In this document: piece after piece, positions 1,243 to 58,235 of the stretch
Layout of the letters: each line of letters opens with the position of its first letter
Position numbering within the stretch: the stretch's first letter is position 1
Virus record (IMG/VR): IMGVR_UViG_3300037467_000752
Source: a virus
Taxonomy: Duplodnaviria; Heunggongvirae; Uroviricota; Caudoviricetes
DNA: 64,000 nt
Direction: 5' to 3' (one strand)
Notes under the pieces: model-generated
What the model was told of the DNA's origin: nothing
Databases searched by the model: none
The model's input: the letters and a program-made list of their open reading frames with translations, nothing else
Made by a program: the position numbers and the translations under genes

Positions 1243-2228
1243 TGATCGTGATCGAAGGCAAGTTCGGCATCCGTGCAACCATTCTGGCGGACTCCATTTC
1301 CGCTATCACGCGCGACCGCATGGTGACGTATGAACTGGAATATCCGCGCATCGTGCACGCAGAACTACTCACGCACGGGATGCTACGGAGGAATAGCGCA
1401 AGCTCTCGCGCTATTCCGTTCGCCAAGATGCTTGAACAACTTACGGCAGTGCCCGTGCGTTTCGGGGCTGCGCAAAGAGGTATGCAAGACGCAGGAGAGC
1501 ATCGCGCATTGATCCAAGGGTACACGCCTGAGCAGTGGTGGGACTTGGCTAAGAAAAGTGCGGTTCGCTTTTCGGAAGAGTTTTATGAGGCAGGCTATGC
1601 GAAACAGGTTTTCAATCGCCTGACTGAAGCTTTCCAGATGATGAAGGTGGTCCTTAGTGGCACGGAGTACGACAACTTCTTCTGGCTGAGGAATGACGGC
1701 GCAGCCGATCCGACTTTGCATGAACTGGCTCGCGTCATGTGGGAGGCGCGTCAAGCGTCTGCGCCCGCAATGCTGCAGCCCGGCGAGTGGCATGTTCCAT
1801 ACGTAGAAACCGTGCGCAACTCTTCTGGTGCTGCGTTGGCCTACTACATTTGGGAAAAGACGGAAGACGGCTTCCCTGCCAAACAATGGCTGACTCCGAT
1901 GGACGCTGTGAAGGTGTCTGCTGCACGCTCTGCGGCTGTGTCGTTCCGCAACGAAGACTACGGCTACAACAAGTGCATGGAAGTGCATCAGCGGCTTGTG
2001 GGCGACGAGCGGAAGCACGCTAGCGCCTTTGAGCATCAGTGCACGCCGATGAAGGCCGCAGACTACGAGAGCGACACTTTCAAACACGCCAATATACCGG
2101 CGATGCCGTGGACGTGGGAAGAAGGCATCAGCCATATGGACCGCAATGGCAACCTGTGGAGCGGGCCGCTGAAGGGCTTTGTGCAATATAGAAAACTTAT
2201 CCCCGGCGAGAACTACGGTGGAGAATAG
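1241..2228 (+). CDS. Divergent ThyX-like protein (thymidylate synthase complementing fold)
   Basis: Segment VTYELEYPRIVHAELLTHGMLRRNSASSRAIP aligns with the ThyX core (P-I-F-V...RHR..S....S.R), but RHR is replaced by THG. The start at ATG 1241 is chosen to avoid the overlap present in the longer ORF call. Confidence 0.4.
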
Positions 2229-18799: not shown

Positions 18800-21613
18800 A
18801 TGGACATTTCCCAACAAGTCTTCAGTGACATCATCATTTACAACAAGTACGCCAAATACATTCCCGCCCTCAAGCGCCGCGAAACGTGGGAGGAAATCTG
18901 TGATCGCAATGCAGCGATGCACCTGAAGAAGTTCCCGCAGCTTGAGGACAGCATCCGAGCCGTGTATACGGATTACGTCAAGACTAAGAAGGTGCTCCCG
19001 TCCATGCGATCCATGCAATTCGGCGGGCGTCCCATTGAACTCAACCACACAAGAATCTACAACTGCTGCCTACTCCCCGTGGACAATGTAGTGGCCTTTG
19101 GTGAAACCATGTTCCTGCTGCTGGGAGGCACAGGCGTAGGCTACAGCGTGCAGAAGCATCATATTGAAAAGCTGCCCGTCATCCAAGGACCGAAGACCAC
19201 ACGCAGGCGCTACCTTGTCTCCGATTCGATTGAAGGCTGGGGCGACGCGGTGAAGATGCTCCTGAAGGCGTACGCAGAGGGCAGGGCCAACCCTGATTTT
19301 GATTTTCGCGATATCCGTCCGAAGGGTGCCACGCTGGTAACTGCTGGCGGCAAGGCTCCCGGCCCGGAACCCCTGCGCATCTGTCTGGAAAATCTCCGCA
19401 CGGTGTTGAATGGGGCTGTCGGTCGCAAGCTGACGACGCTGGAGTGCCATGATATGCAGTGTCACATTGCCGATGCTGTCCTTTCTGGAGGTATCCGCCG
19501 TGCAGCCATGATCGCGTTCTTCAGCCATGACGACCTTGACATGGTGACTTGCAAGAGCGGTGCATGGTGGGAACTGAACCCCCAGCGCGGGCGTGCGAAC
19601 AACTCCGCTGTGTTGCACAGGGATGAAATCGATCAAGACGCATTTCAACGTCTGTGGCAGAGAGTTGAAGAGTCTAACGCGGGGGAGCCGGGCGTCTATT
19701 GGACTAACGATAAGGAGATTCTGAGCAACCCGTGCTTTAGGGGCGATATGGAACTGCTTACCTCCGAAGGCTACAAACGAATCGATAGCCTCGTGGGTAA
19801 GGAATTCCTCAACGTCAATAAGGACGGCAACCTCACCGCTGGCAAGGTGTGGTCCACTGGCGTAAAGCCTGTTGTGGAAGTCCGCTTTCGTCACAGCAGG
19901 GCCGGAAGGAAGCCTAGCCTGTACGTCACACCCAATCACACATTCATGCTGAATGACGGAACGGAGTGCGAGGCTAAAGACTTGGCAGGTAAGCGGCTTA
20001 TGCCTTACTTTACCGGCAAGGCTATTCCTCGCGTTCAAGAAGATTTCAAAGCTGGCTTCATGCTCGGCGATGCGTGCCTGACGGACGCTGCAAATCCTGA
20101 CAAGGCTGGAATTGTGGTGTGCATTGGCGAGAATGACGTAGAAGTAGCGGACATTTTTGGGGTCACCCTGTCAGACAACCATCGGCATTACCTCCAATCT
20201 GCCAGATCGCTTGTGGACAAGTATGGCTTGCCCGTTACACAGACGTTTGATAGGCAGCTTGGTGATAACCGCAGTGACGACTTCCTCATGGGTCTGTACT
20301 CTGCAAACGGGTGTGTGATTGCATCTGGTAAACGTGTTGCTCTCAAGACGACATCTAAGTTGCTTGCACAGCAAGTAGTTGAGTGGCTGCAGGCCAAAGG
20401 AATGACGCCGTATGTGACGACAAATAAGGCGAAGCGGATTCAATGGCCTAACGGAGAATACGAAAGCCGGGAGAGCTATGACGTTAACCTCGCTGGGCTT
20501 GAGAACCTGATTCGGTTTGCGGAAGTCGTTTCGTTTGTGCATGGCTACAAGCGTGAAGCACTGGCACAAGCAATTCGCGAAAGCTCTCCTACTGTTTCGG
20601 CTGTTCTGTCGGCGGGGGAAGCTGAAGTGTTTGACTTCACTGAGCCTGAAACTCATTGGGGCATCGTCAATGGCGTTGTTGCGCACAACTGTGTCGAGGC
20701 TACGTTGCGAATGTTCTCGTTCTGCAACCTTACTACGGTTAACGCATCGGATGTCGAGACGCAAGATGAGTTGAACAAACGAGTAGCCGCTGCTACCCTC
20801 ATCGGCACTCTGCAAGCATCCTATACAGACTTCCACTATCTGCGGGATGAATGGAAGAAGGTTACGGAAGAAGACGCCCTTATCGGTGTGTCCATGACGG
20901 GCATCGGCTCTGGCAGGGTGTTGAAACTGGACTTGACGGAAGCCGCACGCATTGTGGTGACAGTGAACAAGGATGTGGCATCGCTAGTCGGCATTAATAC
21001 GGCTGCTCGGACCTCGCTTCTCAAGCCTGAAGGCACTGCCTCTATCGTGGTGGGCTCTTCATCTGGCATCCATGCATGGCACGCTCCGTTCTACCGTCGC
21101 CGTATGCGCCTTGGAAAGAACGAGCCGCTGTACGCCTACGTGAAGGCCAACTTCCCGGAGCTTGTGGAGGATTGCCACTTCAAACCGCACCTTGAAGCCG
21201 TGCTGACGATTCCGCAGAAAGCTCCCGAGGGCTCCATCTTGCGCGATGAGTCGTTCTTGGATTTGCTGGAGCGTGTTCGCAGGTTCAATCAGGAGTGGAT
21301 TGCTCCGGGCCATAATCGCGGCGTGCAGAAGCACAACGTATCTTGCACCATCAGCCTGAAGCCTGACGAGTGGGAAGCCTGCGGTGAGTGGATGTGGAAG
21401 CATCGCAACGAGTACAACGGCATCAGCGTGTTGCCTTATGACGGTGGGACGTACATCCAAGCGCCGTTCGAAGACTGCACGGAAGAAGAGTACAATGCGA
21501 TGATGTCGCTGCTTCATAGCATCGATCTTACGCAGGTGATTGAAACCGACGACGCTACGGGCTTTACGCAGGAAGCGGCCTGTGCTGGCGGCCAATGCGA
21601 GGTTATCCTGTAA
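18800..21613 (+). CDS. Ribonucleotide reductase large subunit interrupted by an intein
   Basis: RNR active-site context EPGVYWTND...SNPC, resuming as VEATL; the spliced product reads SNPCVEATL. C-terminal CAGGQC redox pair. No beta-subunit gene lies adjacent, so a class II single-chain enzyme is suggested. Confidence 0.75.
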   Translation: MDISQQVFSDIIIYNKYAKYIPALKRRETWEEICDRNAAMHLKKFPQLEDSIRAVYTDYVKTKKVLPSMRSMQFGGRPIELNHTRIYNCCLLPVDNVVAFGETMFLLLGGTGVGYSVQKHHIEKLPVIQGPKTTRRRYLVSDSIEGWGDAVKMLLKAYAEGRANPDFDFRDIRPKGATLVTAGGKAPGPEPLRICLENLRTVLNGAVGRKLTTLECHDMQCHIADAVLSGGIRRAAMIAFFSHDDLDMVTCKSGAWWELNPQRGRANNSAVLHRDEIDQDAFQRLWQRVEESNAGEPGVYWTNDKEILSNPCFRGDMELLTSEGYKRIDSLVGKEFLNVNKDGNLTAGKVWSTGVKPVVEVRFRHSRAGRKPSLYVTPNHTFMLNDGTECEAKDLAGKRLMPYFTGKAIPRVQEDFKAGFMLGDACLTDAANPDKAGIVVCIGENDVEVADIFGVTLSDNHRHYLQSARSLVDKYGLPVTQTFDRQLGDNRSDDFLMGLYSANGCVIASGKRVALKTTSKLLAQQVVEWLQAKGMTPYVTTNKAKRIQWPNGEYESRESYDVNLAGLENLIRFAEVVSFVHGYKREALAQAIRESSPTVSAVLSAGEAEVFDFTEPETHWGIVNGVVAHNCVEATLRMFSFCNLTTVNASDVETQDELNKRVAAATLIGTLQASYTDFHYLRDEWKKVTEEDALIGVSMTGIGSGRVLKLDLTEAARIVVTVNKDVASLVGINTAARTSLLKPEGTASIVVGSSSGIHAWHAPFYRRRMRLGKNEPLYAYVKANFPELVEDCHFKPHLEAVLTIPQKAPEGSILRDESFLDLLERVRRFNQEWIAPGHNRGVQKHNVSCTISLKPDEWEACGEWMWKHRNEYNGISVLPYDGGTYIQAPFEDCTEEEYNAMMSLLHSIDLTQVIETDDATGFTQEAACAGGQCEVIL
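19733..20689 (+). other. Intein (319 aa) with a LAGLIDADG homing endonuclease, inserted at the RNR active site
   Basis: Starts with the Cys of CFRGDMELLTSEGYK. Block B TPNHTFML. Ends VVAHN, followed by the +1 Cys. Two LAGLIDADG-like motifs (GFMLGDACL and FLMGLYSANG). Confidence 0.7.
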
Positions 21614-21867
21614 TGCTTACCGTCTATTCGACCCCGGCTTGTCCGGGCTGTACCGCAGTCAAAGCCCTGCTGCTTCGCTTCAACATTCCGTTTGAAGTGA
21701 AGATGGTAACGGAGGATGAGGGAGCGAAAGCTTTCTTCAAGGCCAAGGGCCATCGTTCCGTGCCACAGGTGTACGCTGGCGATGTCTACGTGGGCGACTT
21801 CGCTGCCGTATCCAAGACAGGGGCTGCAGACCTAATGGCTTTAGCAACGAAACAACAAAAGACTTGA
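21613..21867 (+). CDS. Glutaredoxin/thioredoxin-fold redox protein (NrdH/Grx-like)
   Basis: CPGC active site at the N-terminus of a roughly 85-aa thioredoxin fold. Immediately downstream of the RNR gene (TAATG overlap). Confidence 0.6.
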   Translation: MLTVYSTPACPGCTAVKALLLRFNIPFEVKMVTEDEGAKAFFKAKGHRSVPQVYAGDVYVGDFAAVSKTGAADLMALATKQQKT

Positions 21868-21880
21868 CACTACTGGACGG

Positions 21881-21918
21881 CTGAGGCACACTGCGTGCTT
21901 CAGTCGTTTTTTTTTTTT
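21881..21918 (+). terminator. Strong intrinsic terminator
   Basis: Stem CTGAGGCAC-actgc-GTGCTTCAG (9 bp with one G-U pair), followed by TCG and 12 T residues. Confidence 0.7.
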
Positions 21919-21946
21919 GCCCCAACCATCCTAGAAGGAGCAAGCA

Positions 21947-22255
21947 ATGGCAAAGCGCAAGATGCATGACGTGCTGTGGGAAGCAGCCAACACGTACCTT
22001 CCCTACAACGATGACTTCAATCATCGCCGCTGGAGTTGCAACTCTGCGCTGGCTGCGGAATTCGAGGGCTACGAAAACCCGAGAAATCGTCGCGCTGCAG
22101 CTACGGACAAGTTCCTGAAGTCGCTCGGCTGTGCCACGGGCGGTCTGAAGGGCAAGTTCCAGAACTACCCGGAAGGCCCGGAGCGCCAAGGTGTTCGCTA
22201 CATGTGGCTCATGCTTGCTGCAGCCGTTGCCAAGGACGAAGGAGTGACGCTGTGA
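21947..22255 (+). CDS. Hypothetical protein
   Basis: RBS gaaggagcaag. No domain assigned. Confidence 0.45.
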   Translation: MAKRKMHDVLWEAANTYLPYNDDFNHRRWSCNSALAAEFEGYENPRNRRAAATDKFLKSLGCATGGLKGKFQNYPEGPERQGVRYMWLMLAAAVAKDEGVTL

Positions 22256-22569
22256 AGCTGTCCGAAGCATTCCGCGAAGCAAAGACACTGATGCATTCCG
22301 AACGCAACGGCGGATTCATTTGCCTTGCTCTGGAAGACCTCGCTGTCGATGATCGAGTGACAGCCAAGGAAGCAGCCCTCATCGTACAGGCTCGCATCCG
22401 TGGATACTACACAGCAAACGAATACGTCGCCCGCACGGAGTACGGCTACGAAGGGAAGACAGGCGTTGCTCTGGAAACGTTCCTTCGTGTGAACGGTGTC
22501 AACATGACGAAGTGGCGCGAGGACTTTCTTGACCGTCTGATCTACGAATACGAAGCCAAAGGCCAATGA
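22252..22569 (+). CDS. Hypothetical protein (105 aa)
   Basis: GTGA overlap start within the longer ORF 22036-22569. Confidence 0.4.
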   Translation: MKLSEAFREAKTLMHSERNGGFICLALEDLAVDDRVTAKEAALIVQARIRGYYTANEYVARTEYGYEGKTGVALETFLRVNGVNMTKWREDFLDRLIYEYEAKGQ

Positions 22570-22580
22570 GGAAATGAGCA

Positions 22581-22742
22581 ATGAAGAAGGTCTTCGTCAC
22601 AATCATCAACCGTTGCCGCAAGTACACCTTCCTGTGTGATGCGTACTCGGAAAACGGCAAGTGGAAGATTCCGTTGGCCGCTTACGAGCAGTGCCTTCAC
22701 CGCTCCAACGTCCGTATCAGCGATACGTTCACAATGGGCTGA
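22581..22742 (+). CDS. Hypothetical small protein (53 aa)
   Basis: RBS gaggaaatgag. Cys-containing. Confidence 0.3.
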   Translation: MKKVFVTIINRCRKYTFLCDAYSENGKWKIPLAAYEQCLHRSNVRISDTFTMG

Positions 22743-22745
22743 CAC

Positions 22746-22913
22746 ATGAAAGGCGCTGTCATCTACAACGGCGTGTGGCTGTGCAAGGGCAGTGTTGCTC
22801 TGGAGCTACACCAGAAGGGTGAATGGAAGAAACTTGACACCCATATGAAGGAAGTGGAACAGAAGTACCGTACACTTCATGGCATAGCAACCAAACAAGG
22901 AGAGAAGCAATGA
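22746..22913 (+). CDS. Hypothetical small protein (55 aa)
   Basis: Tight packing. ATGA overlap with the next gene. Confidence 0.3.
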   Translation: MKGAVIYNGVWLCKGSVALELHQKGEWKKLDTHMKEVEQKYRTLHGIATKQGEKQ

Positions 22914-23239
22914 AAAATCTGCTTAGCAAGTACAGCCCCAGCGTTCACGCGGTGGCAGTGAAGCGGTTGATCGAACTGCGTGACGGTGCTACTGCCAGAA
23001 GCGCAACTGCTGGCATTTGCAAGGACATCGCGTTCGCCTTCATCGCCAATGGCATCCACCTTGGCGAAGAACCTGTGGACTCTGGCTACGACTACTGCCG
23101 AGACGTGTTCCGCGATATGGACCTGCCTGATGACCCGCTCGATTACGGTGTCCACCTTATGTGGGAAGGCGAAGCAGGGACAACTCGTCGTGCGTTTGCG
23201 GGCGAAATGGCTGCACATATTCAGGAGAACTACCTGTGA
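22910..23239 (+). CDS. Hypothetical protein
   Basis: RBS aaggagagaag. No domain assigned. Confidence 0.45.
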   Translation: MKNLLSKYSPSVHAVAVKRLIELRDGATARSATAGICKDIAFAFIANGIHLGEEPVDSGYDYCRDVFRDMDLPDDPLDYGVHLMWEGEAGTTRRAFAGEMAAHIQENYL

Positions 23240-24060
23240 TCGACCTGTACATCCACGGTCGCAAGGTGCCTGTCACGTGGAAGCGATTCCCCGGTGGCGA
23301 AACGCTCGTGCGTATCGAGACTCCGCAAGCTGGCGTGGACCTCGGCGCACGCATCGTCATGCGCTTCGAAGGCAACGATGACCTGTTCAATCTCGCCTTG
23401 CTCGTGGACGCCATCCGTCGCAATGTGAATGTGGGCCGAATCACGTTGGACATGCCCTACCTTCCCTACGCACGTCAGGATCGTGTGTGCAGCCCCGGCG
23501 AATCACTTAGCGTGAAAGTTGCGTGCGACTTCATCAACAGTCTTAAGTTCGATGCTGTGTTCGTGAAGGACATCCACTCTGAAGTTGGCGTTGCGTTACT
23601 GGATAATCTGCGGCACATGACCCAAGCGGATGCTGCCTTCTGGTTTACCGGAGCCCTGCGCCGCGATGAAACAGTGCTAGTGAGCCCGGATGCCGGGGCC
23701 AACAAGAAGGTGCTGACGTTCGCCAAGGAACACTCCTTCGATGACGTGGTGCGTGCAGACAAGCTGCGCGACACTCGCACGGGAGCAATCCTTGACACCA
23801 TCGTGTACAGCGAACATATCGGCAGCAGAAACTTCCTCATCTTGGACGACATCTGCGATGGCGGCAGAACGTTCGTGGAACTTGCGAAGAAGCTGCGACC
23901 TCTGACGGAAGGGAAGATTTTCCTGTACGTCACGCACGGCATCTTCTCGGCTGGCGTGGATGTTTTCAACGGCATCGTTGATCGCATCTACGTCACGAAC
24001 TACATGGGCAAGGCTGCAGACTCCCTGCATCCACTCATCATCAGCAACCACAACAAGTAA
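23236..24060 (+). CDS. prs: Ribose-phosphate pyrophosphokinase (PRPP synthetase)
   Basis: Motif ITLDMPYLPYARQDRV matches the diagnostic Prs motif. PRPP-binding loop ILDDICDGGRT. GTGA overlap start. Confidence 0.8.
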   Translation: MIDLYIHGRKVPVTWKRFPGGETLVRIETPQAGVDLGARIVMRFEGNDDLFNLALLVDAIRRNVNVGRITLDMPYLPYARQDRVCSPGESLSVKVACDFINSLKFDAVFVKDIHSEVGVALLDNLRHMTQADAAFWFTGALRRDETVLVSPDAGANKKVLTFAKEHSFDDVVRADKLRDTRTGAILDTIVYSEHIGSRNFLILDDICDGGRTFVELAKKLRPLTEGKIFLYVTHGIFSAGVDVFNGIVDRIYVTNYMGKAADSLHPLIISNHNK

Positions 24061-24075
24061 GAAAGGACAGAAACA

Positions 24076-25731
24076 ATGTTCAACATCTTCCCTCCCCACG
24101 CCTGTGACTTCTACAAGACCGGGCATATCTACCAATACGTGCCCGGCACGCAACAGGTGTACTCCAACTTCACGGCCCGAGCAGCAACGCACGCACGGAT
24201 GCCCAAGGAGTGGGACGGCAAAGTGGTGTTCTTCGGCCTGCAGGCAATGGTCAAGGGCTTCTTGATCGACCAGTGGAACCGCGAGTTCTTCGACAAGCCC
24301 AAGCACAAAGTCGTCGCACGCTACACCCGTCGCATGGACGCGGCGCTGGGTGCTGGCGTGGTGACTTCCGAACACATTGCAGCCCTGCACGATCTTGGCT
24401 TCCTGCCTGTCATCGTCAAGGCCCTGCCGGAAGGCTCCCGTGTGAACCTGAAGGTGCCGCTGTTCACGGTGACGAACCATCCCAACTACCCGGAGTTCTT
24501 CTGGCTGACGAACTATCTGGAGGATGCGTTCTCGGCTGAATGCTGGAAGCCTATCACTGTGGCTACCATCGCCTACGAGTTCCGCCGAATCCTACGCAAG
24601 TGGCAGGAAATCACGGGCTCTGCCCCGCAGTTCGTGGATTGGCAGCTTCACGACTTCTCCATGCGTGGACTCGATGGCCTGATGGCGGCTGGCCCCACGG
24701 GCGGTGCACACATGGCTGCAACGGGCTACGGCACGGACAACATCCTTGCCCTCGATTGGCTGGAGGAATACTACAACGCCGATGCGGAGTTCGAACTGCT
24801 TGGCGGGGGCGTTCCGGCTACGGAGCACAGCGTCATGTGCATGGGTGGCAAGGAAGATGAGAAGGAAACTTTCCGCCGCCTGATGGCTCGCTACCCCACT
24901 GGCATCTTGTCTATCGTGTCCGACACGTGGGACTTCTGGAAAGTCATCACGCAAACGGCGCTGGAACTGAAGGATGAAATCCTCGCACGACAACCCGATG
25001 CGCTGGGCAATGCCAAGCTGGTGTTCCGCCCCGATTCGGGCGACCCGGTGAAGATCATCACGGGCCTGACGTACAAGGAAATCCAAAGCCTTGACGACTA
25101 CGATGATGTCAATGGCGAGGAAGTGGTGAAGTACGAAGGCAAGTTCTACGAGTACGAAGTGGATTACCACTACAGCTATGACGACTCGTGGCCCACGGGT
25201 ATCACACTCGGCAAGGAAGTGCCTGAGCATGTCGTCAAGGGTGCTGTGGAGTGCCTGTGGGACATCTTCGGTGGTGACACCAATGAGAAGGGCTACAAGA
25301 CGCTGAATCAGCGTGTGGGCCTCATCTACGGTGACAGCATCACGTTGGACCGGGAGGAAGCCATCCTCAGCCGCCTTGCGGCCAAGGGCTTCAGCGCAGG
25401 CAACCTCGTGTTCGGCATCGGCAGCTTCACGTACCAATACGTGACGCGGGACACCTTCGGCATGGCAATGAAGGCAACGTTCGGCGTGGTGGAGGGTGAA
25501 GACCGCGAACTGTTCAAAGACCCAGCTACGGGTGACGGCATGAAGAAGTCTGCTAAGGGCTTGCTGCGTGTGGAGAAGGAGGGCGACAACTTCGTCCTCT
25601 ACGACCAGCAGACGCGAGAGCAAGAAGCGCAAGGCGCACTGGAAACCGTCTTCTACTGCGGCTCGCTGCACAGGGATGAGAAGTACGAAACCATTCGGTA
25701 TCGGCTTGGCATCACCACTATCAAGTTTTAA
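24076..25731 (+). CDS. nadV: Nicotinamide phosphoribosyltransferase (NAMPT, NadV-like)
   Basis: 551 aa with the NAMPT/PBEF family architecture. N-terminal DFYKTGH, GTDNIL, TEHSVM and C-terminal GSLHRD-type regions. RBS gaaaggacag. Confidence 0.8.
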   Translation: MFNIFPPHACDFYKTGHIYQYVPGTQQVYSNFTARAATHARMPKEWDGKVVFFGLQAMVKGFLIDQWNREFFDKPKHKVVARYTRRMDAALGAGVVTSEHIAALHDLGFLPVIVKALPEGSRVNLKVPLFTVTNHPNYPEFFWLTNYLEDAFSAECWKPITVATIAYEFRRILRKWQEITGSAPQFVDWQLHDFSMRGLDGLMAAGPTGGAHMAATGYGTDNILALDWLEEYYNADAEFELLGGGVPATEHSVMCMGGKEDEKETFRRLMARYPTGILSIVSDTWDFWKVITQTALELKDEILARQPDALGNAKLVFRPDSGDPVKIITGLTYKEIQSLDDYDDVNGEEVVKYEGKFYEYEVDYHYSYDDSWPTGITLGKEVPEHVVKGAVECLWDIFGGDTNEKGYKTLNQRVGLIYGDSITLDREEAILSRLAAKGFSAGNLVFGIGSFTYQYVTRDTFGMAMKATFGVVEGEDRELFKDPATGDGMKKSAKGLLRVEKEGDNFVLYDQQTREQEAQGALETVFYCGSLHRDEKYETIRYRLGITTIKF

Positions 25732-25747
25732 CAACGAAAGGAAGAAA

Positions 25748-27064
25748 ATGACGAAGCAATTCAAGAATTATGTCGGCTTTGCCGATGACCACTCGGGTTC
25801 GATGGGGACGCTGGCAAATGCTGCCATCCGCGATTCCAACGCGAACACTCAAGCCATCCGCGAAGCTGCCAGCCGTGAAATGCTGGATACCATCGTATCG
25901 GCTGTGGACTTCGGCAGTAAGGTTACTCGTCGCATTGTCAACAGCAACCCGCACGTGCTGAAGCCTGTGACGCAATGGCCTGTTGCTGGCATGACAGCGA
26001 TGTACGATGCCATTGGCGACCTCATCACTCTGTTTGAATCCCTGCCGGATGCAAACGAGCCCCACGTGTCGTTCCTTATCATGGTGACGACTGACGGGCA
26101 AGAGAACCAATCGGTGCGTTGGAACCGCTCGATGCTGGCCCGCAAGATCGCAGAGCTTCAGCAGACGGAGCGTTGGACTTTTGTGTTCCGTGTTCCGCGT
26201 GGTGCACGCGGGTATCTTGAGGGCCTGAACATCTATCCCGGCAACATCCAAGAGTGGGATACAACGGATGCAGGCATGGCGCAATCTACCGTGCAGACGA
26301 AGACGGCTATCGACACGTTTTATGCGACTCGTGCGGCTGGCAAGCGCGGCTCCAACGTGTTCTACGCTGACGCTCAGAGCGTGACGGCACAAACCGTCCA
26401 AGCCACGCTCACGGACGTTTCCAAGGAAGTGAGCATTTGGGGTGTGCTGCCTACTGAAGACGGCGAGGAAATCCAACCGTGGGCTATGAAGCGCCTTGCC
26501 GGTGCGCCGTTCCTGAAGGGTGCTGCGTTCTACCAACTGACGAAAACGGAAGCCCGCGTGCAAGACGGCAAGCTCATTGCCATCCGCGACAAGGCCAACG
26601 GCAAGGTGTACAGCGGTGACGCAGCACGCCAACTGCTGAACATGCCTGTGCGTTCGCCCAAGGGTTATGTGCGCCTGCATCCCGACGCCACGCCACAGTT
26701 CGACATCTTCATCCAGTCCACGTCTATCAACCGCAAGCTGGTAGCAGGCACGAGCGTGCTGTACTGGCCTGCCAAGGGTACGGGCTTCACGGCTGCGGAC
26801 TTCCCGTGGCTGGCTAACGGTCAAGCCAAGCCGGACGATGCGCTGACGCAACGCGCTGTGGCACTCGTGGGCCAGTCTGCCGTGGCCGCTGTGCAAGCAA
26901 CTGCCCCGGCGAGCAGCCCGGTGAAGCTGGCGTTGGCTGCGGCTTTGCAACGGAAGTTCTTCACCACGCGGGACGAAGGGCGCGACCATGCTCGAAAGAC
27001 TGGCAAGGTACTCCGGGATGCTGGTCCTACGGCTCCCCGTAACCTTCGCTGGTACGTGATTTAA
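25748..27064 (+). CDS. vWA-domain protein with a C-terminal region of unknown function
   Basis: vWA MIDAS motifs DHSGSMGT, TAMYDAI and VTTDGQEN in the N-terminal 200 aa. About 230 aa of unassigned C-terminal sequence. RBS gaaaggaagaaa. Confidence 0.6.
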   Translation: MTKQFKNYVGFADDHSGSMGTLANAAIRDSNANTQAIREAASREMLDTIVSAVDFGSKVTRRIVNSNPHVLKPVTQWPVAGMTAMYDAIGDLITLFESLPDANEPHVSFLIMVTTDGQENQSVRWNRSMLARKIAELQQTERWTFVFRVPRGARGYLEGLNIYPGNIQEWDTTDAGMAQSTVQTKTAIDTFYATRAAGKRGSNVFYADAQSVTAQTVQATLTDVSKEVSIWGVLPTEDGEEIQPWAMKRLAGAPFLKGAAFYQLTKTEARVQDGKLIAIRDKANGKVYSGDAARQLLNMPVRSPKGYVRLHPDATPQFDIFIQSTSINRKLVAGTSVLYWPAKGTGFTAADFPWLANGQAKPDDALTQRAVALVGQSAVAAVQATAPASSPVKLALAAALQRKFFTTRDEGRDHARKTGKVLRDAGPTAPRNLRWYVI

Positions 27065-27067
27065 TTC

Positions 27068-27096
27068 TTGACAAGCTCGGCAGGCAGTGCTACACT
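27068..27096 (+). promoter_or_regulatory. Sigma70-like promoter: TTGACA, 17-nt spacer, TACACT
   Basis: Lies immediately after the vWA gene stop. Same architecture as the other promoters. Confidence 0.5.
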
Positions 27097-27122
27097 GCTT
27101 GCTTCTTACAAAGGAAGAAAAG

Positions 27123-27284
27123 ATGTTTGGACTGTTCAAGAGCGTCACAGACGTAGTGGCGAAGGTGGCTGAAGTGGCCCTTACCCCTGTGGAAGTGGTT
27201 GCTGACGTTGCCAACGCCGTACTGGAGCCCGTGGTGGATGCAGCCCGTGTTGTCAAGGACGAAGTGAAAGAACTTACGAAGTAA
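27123..27284 (+). CDS. Hypothetical small protein (53 aa)
   Basis: RBS aaaggaagaaaag. Val/Ala-rich and helical. Confidence 0.35.
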   Translation: MFGLFKSVTDVVAKVAEVALTPVEVVADVANAVLEPVVDAARVVKDEVKELTK

Positions 27285-27285
27285 G

Positions 27286-27534
27286 GTGTCCTACTACCAA
27301 CTCGCAACGGACTTGCTTCTTAAGGGCGTCCGGGTTGCTGCAATCGAGGCCGACTACGGCCTTGTGTTCAGGCAGGGTAAGGGTGTAGACGACATTCTGC
27401 ACGCTGTCAAGAAGGTTCGTGACCCCAAGATCGGGCGAGCGAAGATCGAAACTGAAATTGGGATGTTGGAGGTCTACTTGAAGAGTATCCTCAAGCATCC
27501 GAAGAAGGAAGGTAATGGCTCTGAAGATCGTTGA
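27286..27534 (+). CDS. Hypothetical protein (82 aa)
   Basis: GTG start after the previous stop. Confidence 0.4.
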   Translation: MSYYQLATDLLLKGVRVAAIEADYGLVFRQGKGVDDILHAVKKVRDPKIGRAKIETEIGMLEVYLKSILKHPKKEGNGSEDR

Positions 27535-27973
27535 GGGCGACTTATTCGCTAACGTGAAGCCGCCTGCGCTAATCGTGCACGGCTGCAACGCACAAGGGAA
27601 GATGGAGAGTGGGTTTGCAGGCAAGCTGCGGAACAAGTTCCCCGATGCCTACAAAATCTACAAGACGGCTGAAGAGGCCCACGGGTTGATGCTGGGTGAC
27701 ATCAACGGCTACACGGACACGGACGGCCACATCATCGTCAACGCCATCACGCAAGAGTTCTACGGCAACGACAAGAGCATTGTCTACGTAGACTACGAAG
27801 CAGTGGAAAAGGCCCTGAGCACTGTGGCCCGATTCGCTGCCCAACTGCCGGGAGGCATTCCCATCCATCTACCGTTCATCGGTGGCGGGCTGGCGAATGG
27901 CAACCGGGACAAGCTGCTAGAGATTTTCGAACGTGTCTTCAAAGACTCCGACGCAACACTCTGGCTTCAATAA
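27515..27973 (+). CDS. Macrodomain protein (ADP-ribose binding or hydrolysing; MacroD/YmdB-like)
   Basis: N-terminal GDLFANVKPPALIVHGCNAQGKMESGFAGKL and C-terminal HLPFIGGGLANG match macrodomain signature regions. RBS gaagaaggaagg. Confidence 0.6.
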   Translation: MALKIVEGDLFANVKPPALIVHGCNAQGKMESGFAGKLRNKFPDAYKIYKTAEEAHGLMLGDINGYTDTDGHIIVNAITQEFYGNDKSIVYVDYEAVEKALSTVARFAAQLPGGIPIHLPFIGGGLANGNRDKLLEIFERVFKDSDATLWLQ

Positions 27974-27993
27974 CTGTACAAGAAAGGAAACTT

Positions 27994-28236
27994 ATGCTCT
28001 TTTTTATCATGCTGGGCGTGGTTGTCGCCCTTACCATCCTCTTTGGCTTCGCAGGGGCCGAAGCAGGCTTAGGGGGCTGCCTCATCGGTCTTTGGACCGC
28101 TGGAATTGTCGGCTGGGTAGCGAACATCGTTGCCATCTGGCACGGCCCTGCGTTGGCTGCGTTTGGCGTACAGGACATTCTTCGCGTCATCGGCATTGTC
28201 GTTGCGCCGATTGGCGTTGTGCTGGGTTACATCTAA
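27994..28236 (+). CDS. Small integral membrane protein (two TM helices)
   Basis: Almost entirely hydrophobic 80-aa protein. RBS aaagaaaggaaa. Confidence 0.45.
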   Translation: MLFFIMLGVVVALTILFGFAGAEAGLGGCLIGLWTAGIVGWVANIVAIWHGPALAAFGVQDILRVIGIVVAPIGVVLGYI

Positions 28237-28376
28237 CCCACTACCACCAATCAACCAGACCTGTCAATAGGTCAGTTTACTAGGAGTTTCAAATCAGCAA
28301 CGAAAACGTAACAGTTGGCGATGTCACCATTGTCCCAGCAGAGCTAAGGAGCTACACTGACGACAGTTTCCGAATC

Positions 28377-28574
28377 TTGAACGCGGCAGAGTCCTACAAA
28401 ACCGAGTTCAAGGAAATGATAACGGCAGCGTCTGAAAAGACGGGTCTTCCTAAGAAGGTCTTGTCCAAGTATTTCAAAGCCCGCTTCAAGGAAGCGACCA
28501 AAGAAGCAGCGGAAGAAGGCGAAGTTTTTGCAGCCCTTGACCGCGTACTCGATGGTGACACCACACCGACCTGA
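28377..28574 (+). CDS. Hypothetical small protein; TTG start uncertain
   Basis: Lys/Glu-rich helical protein. The start codon is ambiguous. Confidence 0.3.
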   Translation: MNAAESYKTEFKEMITAASEKTGLPKKVLSKYFKARFKEATKEAAEEGEVFAALDRVLDGDTTPT

Positions 28575-28628
28575 AATTTCCTCGCAAGAGGAACCCTGAA
28601 ACAACAACCTTTAAGGAAGACCCAAACC

Positions 28629-28892
28629 ATGAACCTGCAAATTATTTCCGCCGTCCTGAGCATCACGCCCAAAGTCATCGCTGTCATTCGTGAACTGGAG
28701 GAAATCGATTCCACCAGTGGAAAAGGCGCTGCCAAAAAGGCGCTGGCGCTGAAACTCGTGGAAGCTGCATACAACGCAACGAAACCCACCATCCCGTTCG
28801 CCGACATCGCCGCTGCCATCAGCACCACGATTGACGCGGCGGTGGAGTTCTTCAACAGCATCGGCACTTTTGTGAAGGGCCTTAAGAAGTAA
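28629..28892 (+). CDS. Hypothetical protein, possibly Holin_LLH-like
   Basis: Hydrophobic N-terminus NLQIISAVLSITPKVIAVI, then an amphipathic Ala/Lys-rich region. RBS taaggaaga. Confidence 0.3.
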   Translation: MNLQIISAVLSITPKVIAVIRELEEIDSTSGKGAAKKALALKLVEAAYNATKPTIPFADIAAAISTTIDAAVEFFNSIGTFVKGLKK

Positions 28893-28987
28893 TGTGATGG
28901 TCAGCACAACCTTGTTTCCGGCGCTAGTGTACCACGGGCACTCAGCAATTAAAACAGGGTTGGCGACGGCTCACCGCTTCTGAATCG

Positions 28988-29023
28988 AAAAAAAAAAAAG
29001 ACGCACCCCCGAAGGAGTACGTC
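28988..29023 (-). terminator. Strong intrinsic terminator for the minus-strand operon
   Basis: On the minus strand the stem is GACGUACUCC-UUCG-GGGGUGCGUC (10 bp with two G-U pairs and a UUCG tetraloop), followed by 12 U residues. Marks the convergence point of the + and - transcription units. Confidence 0.7.
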
Positions 29024-29134
29024 CAAAGCTCTACCACGAGCTAAAACTTACACTTAATTGTGGCCGTCAGGCCATCGACCTCGCTCAGCTTGACCATGAC
29101 TAAATCGTGGGCTTGACTGGCGAGGTCTTTTACG

Positions 29135-29587
29135 TTATCCGCCAGCTTTTCCGTACTGGTCAACTTCCTGCTGTCGGAGCCAAGCGGCGGCTCGCTCACG
29201 TGTGGCGTCATCGACACGTGGCACTGAACCCCCTGCGGGAGCCACGGAAACGGGCTGTGGGGCACTTTCTCGTGCTGGCTGAGGGCTAGGCATAGGCTCG
29301 GCATCGGGCTCGCCTGCGGGCTGCAATCCATTGACACCGATGGTGCGGCTTGTAACGAGTGTGCCGACAACGTTAATGATAGCGATAGCGCCAGTGCCGA
29401 TAGCATCCGCCGTGCTTTGATCGAGGGGGAGGTCATGGCCTGTGAATGCCTTGTAGACGTGTGCAAGGGCGAGCAGTACGCCCGCGATGACCGTTGCCGT
29501 CAGTTGCACGGCCTTGCCCTTGCCGGGGTTTGCGATAGCGGAACCTACTTTGAAAAGTTCCCAAACCGCTGCGATCTTATCTTTCAT
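29135..29587 (-). CDS. Holin-like membrane protein
   Basis: Two hydrophobic helices (VIAGVLLALAHVY and GAIAIINVVGTLV). Sits directly downstream of the endolysin. The Pro-rich C-terminus and an overlapping alternative frame (29041-29466) make the 3' end uncertain. Confidence 0.4.
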   Translation of the reverse strand: MKDKIAAVWELFKVGSAIANPGKGKAVQLTATVIAGVLLALAHVYKAFTGHDLPLDQSTADAIGTGAIAIINVVGTLVTSRTIGVNGLQPAGEPDAEPMPSPQPARESAPQPVSVAPAGGSVPRVDDATRERAAAWLRQQEVDQYGKAGG

Positions 29588-56822: not shown

Positions 56823-57569
56823 ATGCGCCATAAGGCACGGGACAACCGTAGGAAAGAACAAAGACAAGAACAAGAGCGGGCTATAAAAGACAAGTTTCAA
56901 GACATTCGCCGCGAACAGGTAGCCGCCCAAGCCATCACACCCCTAAACGACCGCCAAGCGGAGTACATGAATGCCATTCGCACCAAAGACCTTGTGATCG
57001 CCACGGGGTACGCGGGCACGTCAAAGACGTTCGTGGCAACCTGCATGGCCGCTGACGCCTTCCGGTTGAACGAGTGCAAGCGCATTGTGCTAGCCCGGCC
57101 CGCCGTATCAAATTCCCAAAGCCTCGGATTCTTTTCTGGTGATGCCAATGAGAAGATGACGAATTGGCTCATGCCCATGCTGTCGGTGCTTTACAAGCGC
57201 CTCGGCAAAGCTGTGGTGGACATCGCCATCATGGAAGGCAACATCGTTCTCCAACCCCTTGAAACGATCAAGGGCATGAGCTTCGGGAAAGATACGTGGG
57301 TTATCGCAGACGAAGTGCAGGACTGTGAAATCGAGGAAATCAAGAGCATTGCTACCCGCTCCGGTGGATGCAAGATGATCTTGTGCGGGGACATTCGCCA
57401 GTCAGCCCTTGCTGGTGACAGCGGACTGCGCATCTTCGCCGACATCGTTGCGAACAACCACCGTCTGCAGGAAAGTGTGGCACTTATTGATTTTGACGAG
57501 CACGAGCACATCGTGCGAAGTCGCCTGTGCCGTGAGTTGATTATAGCCTTCGATAAGTCAGGCTACTAA
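56823..57569 (+). CDS. PhoH-like ATPase
   Basis: Walker A-like GYAGTSKTF, Walker B VIADEVQ and GDIRQ motifs in the PhoH order. Confidence 0.6.
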   Translation: MRHKARDNRRKEQRQEQERAIKDKFQDIRREQVAAQAITPLNDRQAEYMNAIRTKDLVIATGYAGTSKTFVATCMAADAFRLNECKRIVLARPAVSNSQSLGFFSGDANEKMTNWLMPMLSVLYKRLGKAVVDIAIMEGNIVLQPLETIKGMSFGKDTWVIADEVQDCEIEEIKSIATRSGGCKMILCGDIRQSALAGDSGLRIFADIVANNHRLQESVALIDFDEHEHIVRSRLCRELIIAFDKSGY

Positions 57570-57584
57570 GGGAGTGAAGTAATA

Positions 57585-58235
57585 ATGTACGATTACAAAC
57601 GGCCTATTCGTCGTAATGACGATGAAGACGATGAAGACGAGGGCACTGGCCCGAAGCCCTTCAAAATCAAGTTCGCTCCGGTTGCGACGGCATACAAAGC
57701 GTTTGTGAACCAACCGTTTGCTGATTCACGTCAATTCGAAGACCTTGTGGAAGTGCTGGACGTAGCTGGTCCCAACGATGTTGTTGAAATCAAGCTTACC
57801 ACTCCGGGCGGTTCTTTGCAAGCCGTGCTTCCTGTGCTAGCTGCTATAGACGCTACGAACGCCTCTGTGTTCGTGCACGCTGTGTCGGACGTGGCAAGCG
57901 CCGGAACGTTCCTTTTGATGATGGCGGATGACGTGTACATCAACCCGCATGTCACCATCATGTTCCATCAGGTGACGTTCGGAGCCTTCGGACAGGGTAA
58001 CCACGTTGAAGACCGTGTGCAACACGTGCAAGGCGCTTCCAAGGCGTTGCTTTCGCAGATGTATGACGGCTTTTTCAACCCTGAAGAGTTGGCTGCTATG
58101 TTCAATGGCAAAGAGTTCTGGATGGGAAAGGAAGAATTCGACAGGCGATATGCCGCTCGCACAGCCTATCGAGAGGCTGCTATGGCAGCTTCGATAGTGG
58201 AAGAACCTCCGAAACGACAACGTAAGAAAGCTTGA
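57585..58235 (+). CDS. ClpP-like serine protease
   Basis: Segments TPGGSLQAVLPVLAAID, ASAGTFLL and MFHQV correspond to the ClpP Ser/His catalytic regions. Confidence 0.55.
   Translation: MYDYKRPIRRNDDEDDEDEGTGPKPFKIKFAPVATAYKAFVNQPFADSRQFEDLVEVLDVAGPNDVVEIKLTTPGGSLQAVLPVLAAIDATNASVFVHAVSDVASAGTFLLMMADDVYINPHVTIMFHQVTFGAFGQGNHVEDRVQHVQGASKALLSQMYDGFFNPEELAAMFNGKEFWMGKEEFDRRYAARTAYREAAMAASIVEEPPKRQRKKA

What the first reader, a model, noticed from the sequence alone, without database searches (positions are those of the whole stretch)
23236..27973. Phage NAD+ reconstitution/ADP-ribose module: Prs, NAMPT, vWA protein and macrodomain
Prs and NAMPT (NadV) sit back to back and together convert ribose-5-phosphate plus nicotinamide into NMN. 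NAD+-depleting defences (Thoeris, SIR2 and DSR families) release exactly these substrates. Phage-encoded NadV was first described in vibriophage KVP40, and phage NAD+ reconstitution pathways have been reported as counter-defence. Here the pair is followed, in the same orientation and under the same promoter set, by an uncharacterised vWA-domain protein and a macrodomain protein. Neither is part of any NAD salvage pathway I know of. No NMNAT or Nudix partner, such as KVP40 NatV, is visible in the window.
Basis: partly seen in the sequence, partly recalled or inferred. Interest (0 to 1): 0.8.

Follow-up and report, generated by a model that had tools for sequence, protein, structure and literature searches.

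The report
Phage NAD+ rebuilding pathway NARP1-AP, split
An uncultured phage carries the already described three-enzyme pathway that rebuilds NAD+ from the fragments left by bacterial NAD+-destroying defences, and the vWA gene sitting in the middle of it is an unrelated backbone gene.

Summary

The "Prs" and "NAMPT" are not a PRPP-to-NMN pair. They match Adps and Namat, the two enzymes of NARP1 (Osterman 2024). Adps converts ADP-ribose and ATP to ADPR-PP, and Namat joins ADPR-PP to nicotinamide to give NAD+ directly. This explains why no NMNAT is present.

- The Namat has the diagnostic adenine-clamp motif GSFTYQYVTRD, identical to that of the validated Vibrio phage Gary Namat. It scores 365 bits against Gary Namat and 151 against KVP40 NadV.
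- The 152-aa protein is a confident macrodomain of the same PHROG as Adpp, the ADPR-1''-phosphate phosphatase of the extended pathway NARP1-AP (Osterman 2026, which counters aRES). It lacks the catalytic lysine of TARG1 and DarG.
- The vWA call is correct: vWA fold and an intact MIDAS motif. But the family is widespread in phages. Among 37 loci with adequate flanks, 31 have vWA with neither NARP1 nor macro, 6 have both, and none is mixed.

So the macro is coupled to NARP1 and the vWA is not. This is a new member of a known kind, with an unusually split gene order.

The parts
23236..24060 (+). Adps-like gene (274 aa): a Prs-family enzyme predicted to pyrophosphorylate ADP-ribose to ADPR-PP.
   Evidence: phrog_619 at 272 bits, against 278 for validated Gary Adps and 193 for E. 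coli Prs. BLASTP 143 bits to Gary Adps against 93 to E. coli Prs. Shares with Gary the missing N-terminal helix, a 4-aa deletion, a 2-aa insertion in the catalytic loop, DDI[CS]DGG, THGIFS and the missing C-terminal ~30 aa. Fails all NCBIfam Prs equivalog cut-offs. F18, R80, H114, D152, K176 and D204-D205-I206-C207-D208 sit where PMC13586617 places F18, R87, H121, D161, K185 and D212-D216.
24076..25731 (+). Namat-like gene (551 aa): a NAMPT-family enzyme predicted to join ADPR-PP and nicotinamide into NAD+.
   Evidence: Best PDB match is 9W5X/9W5W, SPbetaL1 Namat, at 451 bits, against 190 bits for mammalian NAMPT. SCH clamp motif GSFTYQYVTRD at residues 449-459 is identical to Gary Namat; KVP40 NadV reads GGGLLQQLDRD. 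365 bits to Gary Namat against 151 to KVP40 NadV. Catalytic HDFSMRG at residue 192. phrog_448 at 596 bits.
25748..27064 (+). vWA-MIDAS protein (438 aa) with an uncharacterised C-terminal half. An intervening backbone gene, judged not to be part of the NAD pathway.
27068..27096 (+). Sigma70-like promoter match (TTGACA-17-TACACT with TG) in the vWA-s53 gap.
   Evidence: It is the only match in 21500-29200, where 3.1 are expected by chance, so this is a lead only.
27123..27284 (+). Small ORF (53 aa), function unknown, intervening.
   Evidence: Gene call. Weak hit to phrog_9123. Not conserved in relatives L017 or L020.
27286..27534 (+). Small ORF (82 aa), function unknown. It overlaps the macro gene start by 20 nt.
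   Evidence: Gene call. phrog_25399 at 7.5e-7. 69% identical homologue in L017.
27515..27973 (+). Adpp-like macrodomain gene (152 aa), a predicted ADPR-1''-phosphate phosphatase that feeds ADPR to Adps.
   Evidence: AF2 pLDDT 96.8. Foldseek TMq 0.83 to Poa1p, 0.80 to DarG, 0.79 to TARG1. phrog_335 at 128 bits, the same PHROG as Gary Adpp (171) and JG004 Adpp (207). The family profile scores NARP1-associated Adpps at 57-95 bits. Q80 and A127 replace TARG1 K84 and D125, as in Adpps. Strict co-occurrence with NARP1.
21875..21909 (+). Terminator-like hairpin upstream of the + strand gene block.
   Evidence: 15-bp stem plus a T-run.
28999..29024 (-). Terminator-like hairpin at the convergence of the + strand block and the - strand lysis/tail block.

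Best explanation
The locus encodes NARP1-AP, a known phage counter-defence pathway, in an uncultured ~85-kb phage.

When a host defence cleaves NAD+, the pathway is inferred to run as follows:
1. The macrodomain protein (Adpp-like) removes the 1''-phosphate from ADPR-1''-P. ADPR-1''-P is the product of RES-type (aRES) NADases, and removing the phosphate gives ADP-ribose.
2. The Prs-like enzyme (Adps) transfers pyrophosphate from ATP to ADP-ribose, giving ADPR-PP.
3. The NAMPT-like enzyme (Namat) joins ADPR-PP with nicotinamide to regenerate NAD+.

ADP-ribose produced by SIR2, TIR or DSR-type defences enters at step 2. No NMNAT is needed.

The vWA-MIDAS gene and the two small ORFs between Namat and the macro gene are backbone genes of this phage lineage, not pathway components.

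Shown here: family and subfamily membership, diagnostic motifs, folds, gene order and co-occurrence. Inferred from the literature: all of the enzymology and the anti-defence phenotype.
For: Namat:
- Top PDB hit is the solved Namat 9W5X, at 451 bits against 190 for true NAMPTs.
- The clamp motif GSX-Phi-X-Phi-X-Phi-TRD defined in PMC12774641 is present as GSFTYQYVTRD. It is identical to Gary Namat and absent from KVP40 NadV.
- 43% identity and 365 bits to Gary Namat, against 29% and 151 bits to KVP40 NadV.

Adps:
- Closer to Gary Adps (143 bits) than to E. coli Prs (93 bits), with shared indels and the DDICD loop.
- Fails every Prs equivalog cut-off.
- Lies 15 nt from Namat. In Osterman 2024, 97% of Adps-clade genes have an adjacent Namat.

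All three window proteins fall in the same PHROGs as the experimentally validated Gary NARP1-AP proteins, with similar scores.

Macro:
- High-confidence macrodomain fold, with the best TM-score to Poa1p, an ADPR-1''-P phosphatase.
- Homologous to the NARP1-associated Adpps of the paper's Table S1, at 57-95 bits.
- Lacks the TARG1/DarG catalytic Lys and Asp.

Co-occurrence:
- Of 37 vWA loci with adequate flanks, 6 have NARP1 and macro, 31 have neither, and none is mixed.
- The NARP1+macro loci are never monophyletic on the vWA tree (0 of 500 bootstraps). The window clade groups with NARP-less L018/L019 at 74% support. This implies repeated joint gain or loss.

No NMNAT or PnuC in about 77 of 85 kb.

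Distant relatives by terminase (42% identity; JG004-like, PAK_P-like and ventosus-like Pseudomonas phages) carry catalogued NARP1-AP with the same order: Adps, Namat, small gene, macro.
Against: - No biochemistry was done here.
- The macro gene is the fourth gene downstream of Namat, with three intervening genes. It fails the "within two genes" criterion of the defining paper.
- The macro is only 26% identical to the one biochemically tested Adpp, from phage Gary.
- Its closest solved relatives are BT1257 (unknown function) and SCO6735, not Poa1p.
- Its closest homologues in isolates (39% identity, jumbo phages K64-1/RaK2 and Vibrio 2.275.O) are not next to NARP genes. The family is therefore not exclusive to NARP1.
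- The Adpp-typical GGDW after GLAGG reads NGNR here.
- Donor-site residues of the solved Adps (A218, A219, S220, F223) are G, R, T and E here.
- About 12 kb of the genome was not seen.
- The co-occurrence rests on about five independent NARP1+ lineages and a distance tree.
Confidence: 0.75

Rival explanations
1. A genuine Prs makes PRPP from ribose-5-P, a genuine NAMPT makes NMN, and a host or unseen NMNAT finishes NAD+. This would be a NARP2-like salvage pathway without its adenylyltransferase.
For: Pfam and NCBIfam name the proteins Prs-family and NAMPT/NAPRT-family. TIGR01251 is passed narrowly, 121 against a cut-off of 113. Namat retains NAM-PRPP catalysis in vitro according to PMC12774641 (outline). 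About 12 kb of the genome is unseen.
Against: Osterman 2024 tested exactly this expectation for the same gene pair and refuted it: Bas63 still countered defence in a pncC nadR double-deletion host. The window protein has the ADPR-PP clamp motif and is far from KVP40 NadV. The Prs-like protein fails all Prs equivalogs and shares Adps-specific indels. 94% of phages with a KVP40-type Nampt encode Nmnat, and none was found here.
Confidence: 0.06
2. The macrodomain works independently of NARP1. It could be a de-ADP-ribosylase that reverses ADP-ribosylation of DNA, RNA or protein by host toxins (DarT-like or CmdT-like), or a scavenger of RNA-repair by-products. On this view it merely lies near NARP1.
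For: Fold similarity to DarG and TARG1 is as good as to Poa1p. There is a weak NCBIfam hit to the DarG macro region, 8e-5. From my own knowledge, not checked here: SCO6735, the closest relative with a reported activity, is a protein de-MARylase; the sequence hit is. Related macro genes in jumbo phages stand alone. A promoter-like site separates the macro group from Namat and vWA.
Against: The catalytic Lys of DarG and TARG1 is Gln here, and TARG1 D125 is Ala, as in Adpps. In this phage lineage the macro gene is present only where NARP1 is present, 6 loci against 0 of 31, across non-monophyletic lineages. No RNA ligase or Tpt1 family appears in the window.
Confidence: 0.14
3. The vWA-MIDAS protein, possibly with the small ORFs, is a functional fourth component of a lineage-specific extended module. 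For example, it might bind an NADase effector or a nucleotide through its metal site.
For: It sits between Namat and the macro gene on the same strand with 16-nt and 58-nt gaps. This order is kept in two diverged NARP1+ clades.
Against: The family is found without NARP1 or macro in 31 of 37 well-flanked loci, including sister lineages L018 and L019. In isolates it lies in replication modules. No paper links vWA and NARP1. NARP1-AP from phage Gary works as three genes.
Confidence: 0.05

Closest known systems
NARP1-AP of Vibrio phage Gary: Adps, Adpp, Namat (Osterman et al. 2026, bioRxiv 10.64898/2026.01.28.702374)
   Same: The same three protein families, each in the same PHROG with similar scores. 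The Namat clamp motif is identical. No NMNAT. Same strand.
   Different: The Gary order is Adps-Adpp-Namat, contiguous. Here it is Adps-Namat-[vWA, 53 aa, 82 aa]-macro. Identity is only 35% (Adps), 43% (Namat) and 26% (Adpp). Activity is untested here.
NARP1-AP loci of Pseudomonas phages JG004, PAK_P1 and ventosus (Table S1 of the same paper)
   Same: Same order and orientation: Adps, Namat, small gene, macro. These are the nearest isolates by terminase, about 42% identity. A homologous ~50-aa ORF neighbours the module in both.
   Different: No vWA gene between Namat and macro. The macro lies within two genes of Namat.
NARP1 of Bas63 and SPbetaL1: Adps + Namat (Osterman et al. 2024; structures 9W5X/9W5W, PMC12774641; Adps structure, PMC13586617)
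   Same: Best PDB hit of the NAMPT-like protein. DDICD loop and catalytic Lys position of Adps.
   Different: The two-gene system has no phosphatase, and according to the 2026 paper it cannot use ADPR-1''-P.
NARP2 of vibriophage KVP40: NadV + NatV
   Same: Uses a NAMPT-family enzyme and counters NAD+ depletion.
   Different: KVP40 NadV is 29% identical, lacks the clamp motif and has a short SCL loop. NatV and PnuC homologues are absent here. NARP2 goes through PRPP and NMN.
Yeast Poa1p, human TARG1 and bacterial DarG macrodomains
   Same: Same macrodomain subclass by fold, TM 0.79-0.83.
   Different: The TARG1/DarG catalytic Lys is replaced by Gln. Sequence similarity to Poa1p is weak, 39-42 bits with the family profile.

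Membership tests
NARP1 (Adps + Namat) | NAMPT-family protein of the Namat clade carrying the adenine selectivity-clamp helix motif GSX-Phi-X-Phi-X-Phi-TRD, with aromatic residues at the X positions | tested here: met
   GSFTYQYVTRD at residues 449-459. Identical to Gary Namat and one residue different from SPbetaL1 Namat; KVP40 NadV reads GGGLLQQLDRD. 451 bits to 9W5X against 190 to NAMPT.
NARP1 (Adps + Namat) | Prs-family protein of the phage Adps clade rather than a canonical Prs | tested here: met
   143 bits to Gary Adps against 93 to E. coli Prs, with shared indels. phrog_619 at 272 bits, against 278 for Gary and 193 for E. coli Prs. All Prs equivalog cut-offs missed. No full phylogeny with the Osterman data set was built.
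NARP1 (Adps + Namat) | Acceptor-site and catalytic residues of the solved Adps (F18, R87, H121, D161, K185, D212-D213-I214-C215-D216) | tested here: met
   F18, R80, H114, D152, K176 and D204-D205-I206-C207-D208 sit in the corresponding motifs. The mapping is by motif and offset, because the solved Adps sequence is not in the PDB copy.
NARP1 (Adps + Namat) | Donor (ATP) site of the solved Adps: A218, A219, S220, F221, F223 | tested here: inconclusive
   The window has G210, R211, T212, F213 and E215. Gary Adps reads DGGASF. The published family alignment was not available.
NARP1 (Adps + Namat) | adps and namat genes adjacent | tested here: met
   15-nt gap, same strand.
NARP1 (Adps + Namat) | Enzymology (ADPR + ATP to ADPR-PP, then + nicotinamide to NAD+) and rescue from SIR2-HerA, DSR, Thoeris or SEFIR | not testable with these tools
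   Needs LC-MS assays and plaque assays.
NARP1-AP (NARP1 + Adpp) | Macro-domain protein, defined in the paper as PF14519, PF01661 or PF20016 by HHpred | tested here: met
   No direct Pfam hit by hmmscan. But the fold is confident, the profile scores 6e-22 to PDB macrodomains, and homologues at 40-50% identity carry PF01661 or PF20016.
NARP1-AP (NARP1 + Adpp) | Homology to characterised Adpp and to Poa1p | tested here: met
   BLASTP to Gary Adpp 4e-8, 26% identity. Same phrog_335. The family profile scores Table S1 Adpps at 57-95 bits. Poa1p has the best TMq, 0.83.
NARP1-AP (NARP1 + Adpp) | Macro gene within two genes of the NARP1 genes (operational criterion of the paper) | tested here: not met
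   The macro is the fourth gene downstream of Namat; vWA, a 53-aa ORF and an 82-aa ORF intervene.
NARP1-AP (NARP1 + Adpp) | Evolutionary coupling of the macro gene with NARP1 | tested here: met
   6 loci with both, 31 with neither, 0 mixed. NARP1+macro loci are not monophyletic on the vWA tree in any of 500 bootstraps.
NARP1-AP (NARP1 + Adpp) | ADPR-1''-phosphate phosphatase activity and rescue from aRES | not testable with these tools
   Needs purified protein with ADPR-1''-P, and aRES co-expression.
NARP2 (KVP40 NadV + NatV) | KVP40-clade Nampt plus an Nmnat in the same genome | tested here: not met
   29% identity and 151 bits to NadV, no shared clamp region. No NatV or PnuC hit below E = 2 in 77 kb. 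No PF01467 or NUDIX.
Canonical ribose-phosphate pyrophosphokinase (Prs) | Reaches NCBIfam equivalog cut-offs for Prs | tested here: not met
   Best equivalog score is 97.5, against a cut-off of 296. Only the broad TIGR01251 subfamily is passed, 121 against 113.
vWA domain | vWA alpha/beta fold with a MIDAS motif DxSxS...T...D | tested here: met
TARG1/DarG-type ADP-ribosyl glycohydrolase | Catalytic lysine (TARG1 K84, DarG K80) and, for TARG1, D125 | tested here: not met
   The family-invariant Q80 aligns with the DarG lysine in FPTKKHW.

The most novel reading that the evidence does not exclude
In this phage lineage the module may be more than NARP1-AP. One possibility is that the vWA-MIDAS protein or the small ORFs wedged between Namat and the macro gene, including the ~50-aa ORF that also neighbours NARP1-AP in JG004, are accessory counter-defence factors such as NADase binders. 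Another is that this divergent macro subfamily (NGNR instead of GGDW) converts a different, still undescribed non-canonical NAD+ breakdown product into ADPR for NARP1.
Probability: 0.08. Interest if true: 0.7.

Novelty: new member of a known kind. Interest (0 to 1): 0.3.

Why it matters
The result corrects an annotation trap. In phages, "Prs + NAMPT" means direct NAD+ rebuilding from ADP-ribose, not NMN salvage. It adds an uncultured ~85-kb phage lineage to the known carriers of NARP1-AP.

There is a small practical point. The phosphatase gene here is separated from Namat by three unrelated genes, yet it is gained and lost together with NARP1. The published "within two genes" census, which gave 15% of NARP1 phages, therefore underestimates how common the phosphatase extension is. 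By implication it also underestimates how common aRES-type pressure is.

The analysis also flags a large, uncharacterised family of phage vWA-MIDAS proteins that deserves its own study.

Tried and rejected
- Megablast of the whole region against 50,697 phage records gave no match.
- An IMG/VR scan with the vWA protein gave only distant hits.
- An exact look-up of the vWA protein with my first start codon failed, because the true start is one codon later.
- Pfam at E<=10 for vWA and macro found nothing useful.
- PDB entry 9KE8/9KEO, the second-best NAMPT-family hit with motif GAQTYQRNTRD, could not be identified. No paper mentions it, and the best phage match is 64% identity.
- The first KVP40 chunk I fetched did not contain nadV.
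- The promoter scan gave one site, fewer than expected by chance, so the "same promoter set" claim remains untested.
- The solved Adps sequence is not in the PDB copy, so residues were mapped by motif.
- The SCL loop rule of Namat (third residue R, K or Y) could not be applied without a structural alignment.

Full report
**Observation.** Public gene calls on a contig identical to the window (Logan SRR35145397_75019, 85,261 bp) agree with my reading. On the + strand they are:
- a 274-aa Prs-like gene, 23236-24060, with a GTG start overlapping the previous stop;
- a 551-aa NAMPT-like gene, 24076-25731;
- a 438-aa gene, 25748-27064;
- a 152-aa gene, 27515-27973.

All have Shine-Dalgarno-like sequences, and gaps run from -20 to +58 nt. 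Pfam confirms the Prs and NAMPT families but gives nothing for the other two, even at E<=10. Those two needed other evidence.

**The NAMPT-like protein is a Namat.**
- Its best solved relatives are 9W5X/9W5W at 451 bits, against about 190 bits for mammalian NAMPTs. Those entries are the SPbetaL1 Namat structures.
- The structural paper defines a Namat-specific adenine clamp motif, GSX-Phi-X-Phi-X-Phi-TRD, with aromatic X residues that stack on the adenine of ADPR-PP. The motif is absent from Nampt.
- The window protein reads GSFTYQYVTRD.
- Overall the window protein scores 365 bits (43% identity) to Gary Namat, 351 to JG004 Namat and 151 (29%) to KVP40 NadV.

**The Prs-like protein is an Adps.**
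- It scores 143 bits to Gary Adps and 93 to E. coli Prs.
- With Gary Adps it shares several features that E. coli Prs lacks: loss of the N-terminal helix, a 4-residue deletion, a 2-residue insertion in the catalytic loop (DKLRDTRTG), DDI[CS]DGG, THGIFS, and loss of the C-terminal ~30 residues.
- It passes only the broad TIGR01251 subfamily and misses every Prs equivalog cut-off by a wide margin.
- The residues that PMC13586617 assigns to ADPR binding and catalysis have counterparts in the same motifs. The ATP-donor residues differ, so that feature is inconclusive.
- The gene lies 15 nt from Namat. In Osterman et al. 2024, 97% of Adps-clade genes have a neighbouring Namat, and bacterial prs genes almost never do.
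- That paper also records that the Pfam-based expectation (PRPP, then NMN) is what the authors first assumed and then refuted experimentally.

**NMNAT is absent, as expected for NARP1.**
- A Pfam scan of 73 further ORFs of the window shows no CTP_transf_like, NUDIX, NadR or PnuC family.
- The 13.5 kb of the source contig beyond the window has none either.
- tblastn with KVP40 NatV and PnuC gives nothing below E = 2.
- About 12 kb of the genome remains unseen.

**The 152-aa protein is a macrodomain of the Adpp kind.**
- The AF2 model has pLDDT 96.8. It superposes on BT1257, DarG, TARG1 and Poa1p with TM 0.79-0.83, the highest query-normalised score being to Poa1p, the yeast ADPR-1''-phosphate phosphatase.
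- A profile of 42 homologues hits PDB macrodomains at 6e-22. Homologues at 40-50% identity carry PF01661 or PF20016.
- Osterman et al. 2026 showed that a Macro-domain protein accompanies NARP1 in 15% of NARP1 phages, that the Gary protein (Adpp) converts ADPR-1''-P to ADPR, and that Adps-Adpp-Namat overcomes the aRES defence, whose product ADPR-1''-P NARP1 alone cannot use.
- The window protein aligns with Gary Adpp (E 4e-8). It is in the same PHROG as Gary and JG004 Adpp. Its family profile scores the Table S1 Adpps at 57-95 bits, as high as or higher than any solved structure.
- Like the Adpps, it has Gln where DarG and TARG1 have their catalytic Lys, and Ala where TARG1 has Asp125. This argues against a DarG-like glycohydrolase.

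Caveats on the macro assignment:
- Identity to the one tested Adpp is only 26%.
- The closest homologues in isolates, in jumbo phages, are not beside NARP genes.
- The gene lies four genes from Namat, outside the paper's two-gene criterion.

**The vWA protein is real but not part of the module.**
- It has a conserved MIDAS motif.
- The C-terminal half has no match.

The family is large: 983 proteins at E<1e-5. I examined 87 loci. Of the 37 loci with at least 3 kb upstream and 2.5 kb downstream, 31 have the vWA gene and neither NARP1 nor a macro gene. Six have both, and none has only one. One further short contig also has Namat and macro.

On a distance tree of the vWA proteins, the NARP1+macro loci were never monophyletic in 500 bootstraps. 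The window/L017 pair groups with the NARP-less L018/L019 at 74%, and is separated from the other NARP1+ group at 91%.

So NARP1 and the macro gene have been gained or lost together more than once, while the vWA gene stayed. That is what functional coupling of the macro to NARP1 predicts, and it marks vWA as a backbone gene. In Caulobacter phage Cr30, Mycobacterium phage Myrna and Synechococcus phage BUCT-ZZ01, the vWA homologue sits among replication or unknown genes, away from any NAD gene. No paper links vWA with NARP1.

**Context.** The window is a phage. It carries terminase, portal, a tape-measure protein, lysis genes, DNA polymerase A, primase/helicase, an intein-bearing RNR and glutaredoxin. 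It has no close isolate. By terminase its nearest isolates, at about 42% identity, are Pseudomonas phages of the JG004/PAK_P and ventosus groups, which are themselves listed as NARP1-AP carriers. JG004 has the same order, Adps-Namat-small gene-macro, without the vWA gene.

**Mechanism.** The most likely mechanism (confidence 0.75) is that the macro protein dephosphorylates ADPR-1''-P to ADPR, Adps pyrophosphorylates ADPR with ATP, and Namat condenses ADPR-PP with nicotinamide into NAD+. This would counter both canonical NADase defences and aRES. Family membership, motifs, folds and co-occurrence are shown here. The chemistry and the phenotype are inferred from the cited work on homologues.

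**Verdict.** This is a new member of a known system, NARP1-AP, with an unusually split gene order, not a novel four-gene module. Interest is modest. The useful residue is that distance-limited censuses miss such split loci, and that a widespread phage vWA-MIDAS family remains uncharacterised.

Noticed in passing
window 18800-21613 (+): The ribonucleotide reductase gene (937 aa) carries an intein with a LAGLIDADG homing endonuclease (Pfam LAGLIDADG_3 1e-7, Intein_splicing 2e-4). Orthologues in relatives L017 and L018 are 617 aa, without the insertion.
   Followed up: partly
window 22746-22913 (+); L103 (JG004) 1853-2002 (-); L017 7315-7485: A ~50-aa ORF two genes upstream of Adps is homologous to JG004 gp015, which lies immediately downstream of the JG004 Adpp gene (E 7e-12). 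It is also homologous to the ORF just upstream of Adps in L017 (71% identity). This tiny protein seems to travel with NARP1-AP in distant phages; its function is unknown.
   Followed up: partly
window 25748-27064 (+) and loci L018-L100: The vWA-MIDAS protein belongs to a large uncharacterised phage family (983 hits; phrog_26613). It is found in ~85-92 kb contigs and in 250-380 kb contigs, and in isolates such as Cr30, Myrna, Phabba, Streptomyces BK-type phages and BUCT-ZZ01. It usually sits in replication or nucleotide-metabolism blocks. The C-terminal ~220 residues, including a conserved basic tail (phrog_8127), have no fold match.
   Followed up: partly
window 27068-27096 (+): A near-consensus sigma70-like promoter (TTGACA-17-TACACT with an extended -10 TG) lies in the only sizeable intergenic gap of the block, between vWA and the small ORFs and macro gene. 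The macro group may have its own promoter.
   Followed up: no
window 27994-28236 (+): An 80-aa predicted membrane protein directly follows the macro gene. It has homologues in the same position in L017 and L020 (phrog_6006).
   Followed up: no
L104 11032-11697 (source contig, ~0.5 kb beyond the window end): A serine recombinase (Pfam Resolvase, plus weak Recombinase) is encoded just past the window. It is followed by a block of small - strand ORFs with no family hits.
   Followed up: no
window 56823-58235 (+) and elsewhere: PhoH-like ATPase and ClpP/NfeD-like protease genes, an SPFH/Band 7 protein, a dCMP deaminase and a weak MazG hit are present. All are auxiliary genes typical of large lytic phages.
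   Followed up: no
PHROG library, phrog_12872: Both the Adps-like and the Namat-like proteins hit complementary halves of a 547-position PHROG profile annotated as NAMPT. This indicates that fused Adps-Namat proteins exist in some phages.
   Followed up: no
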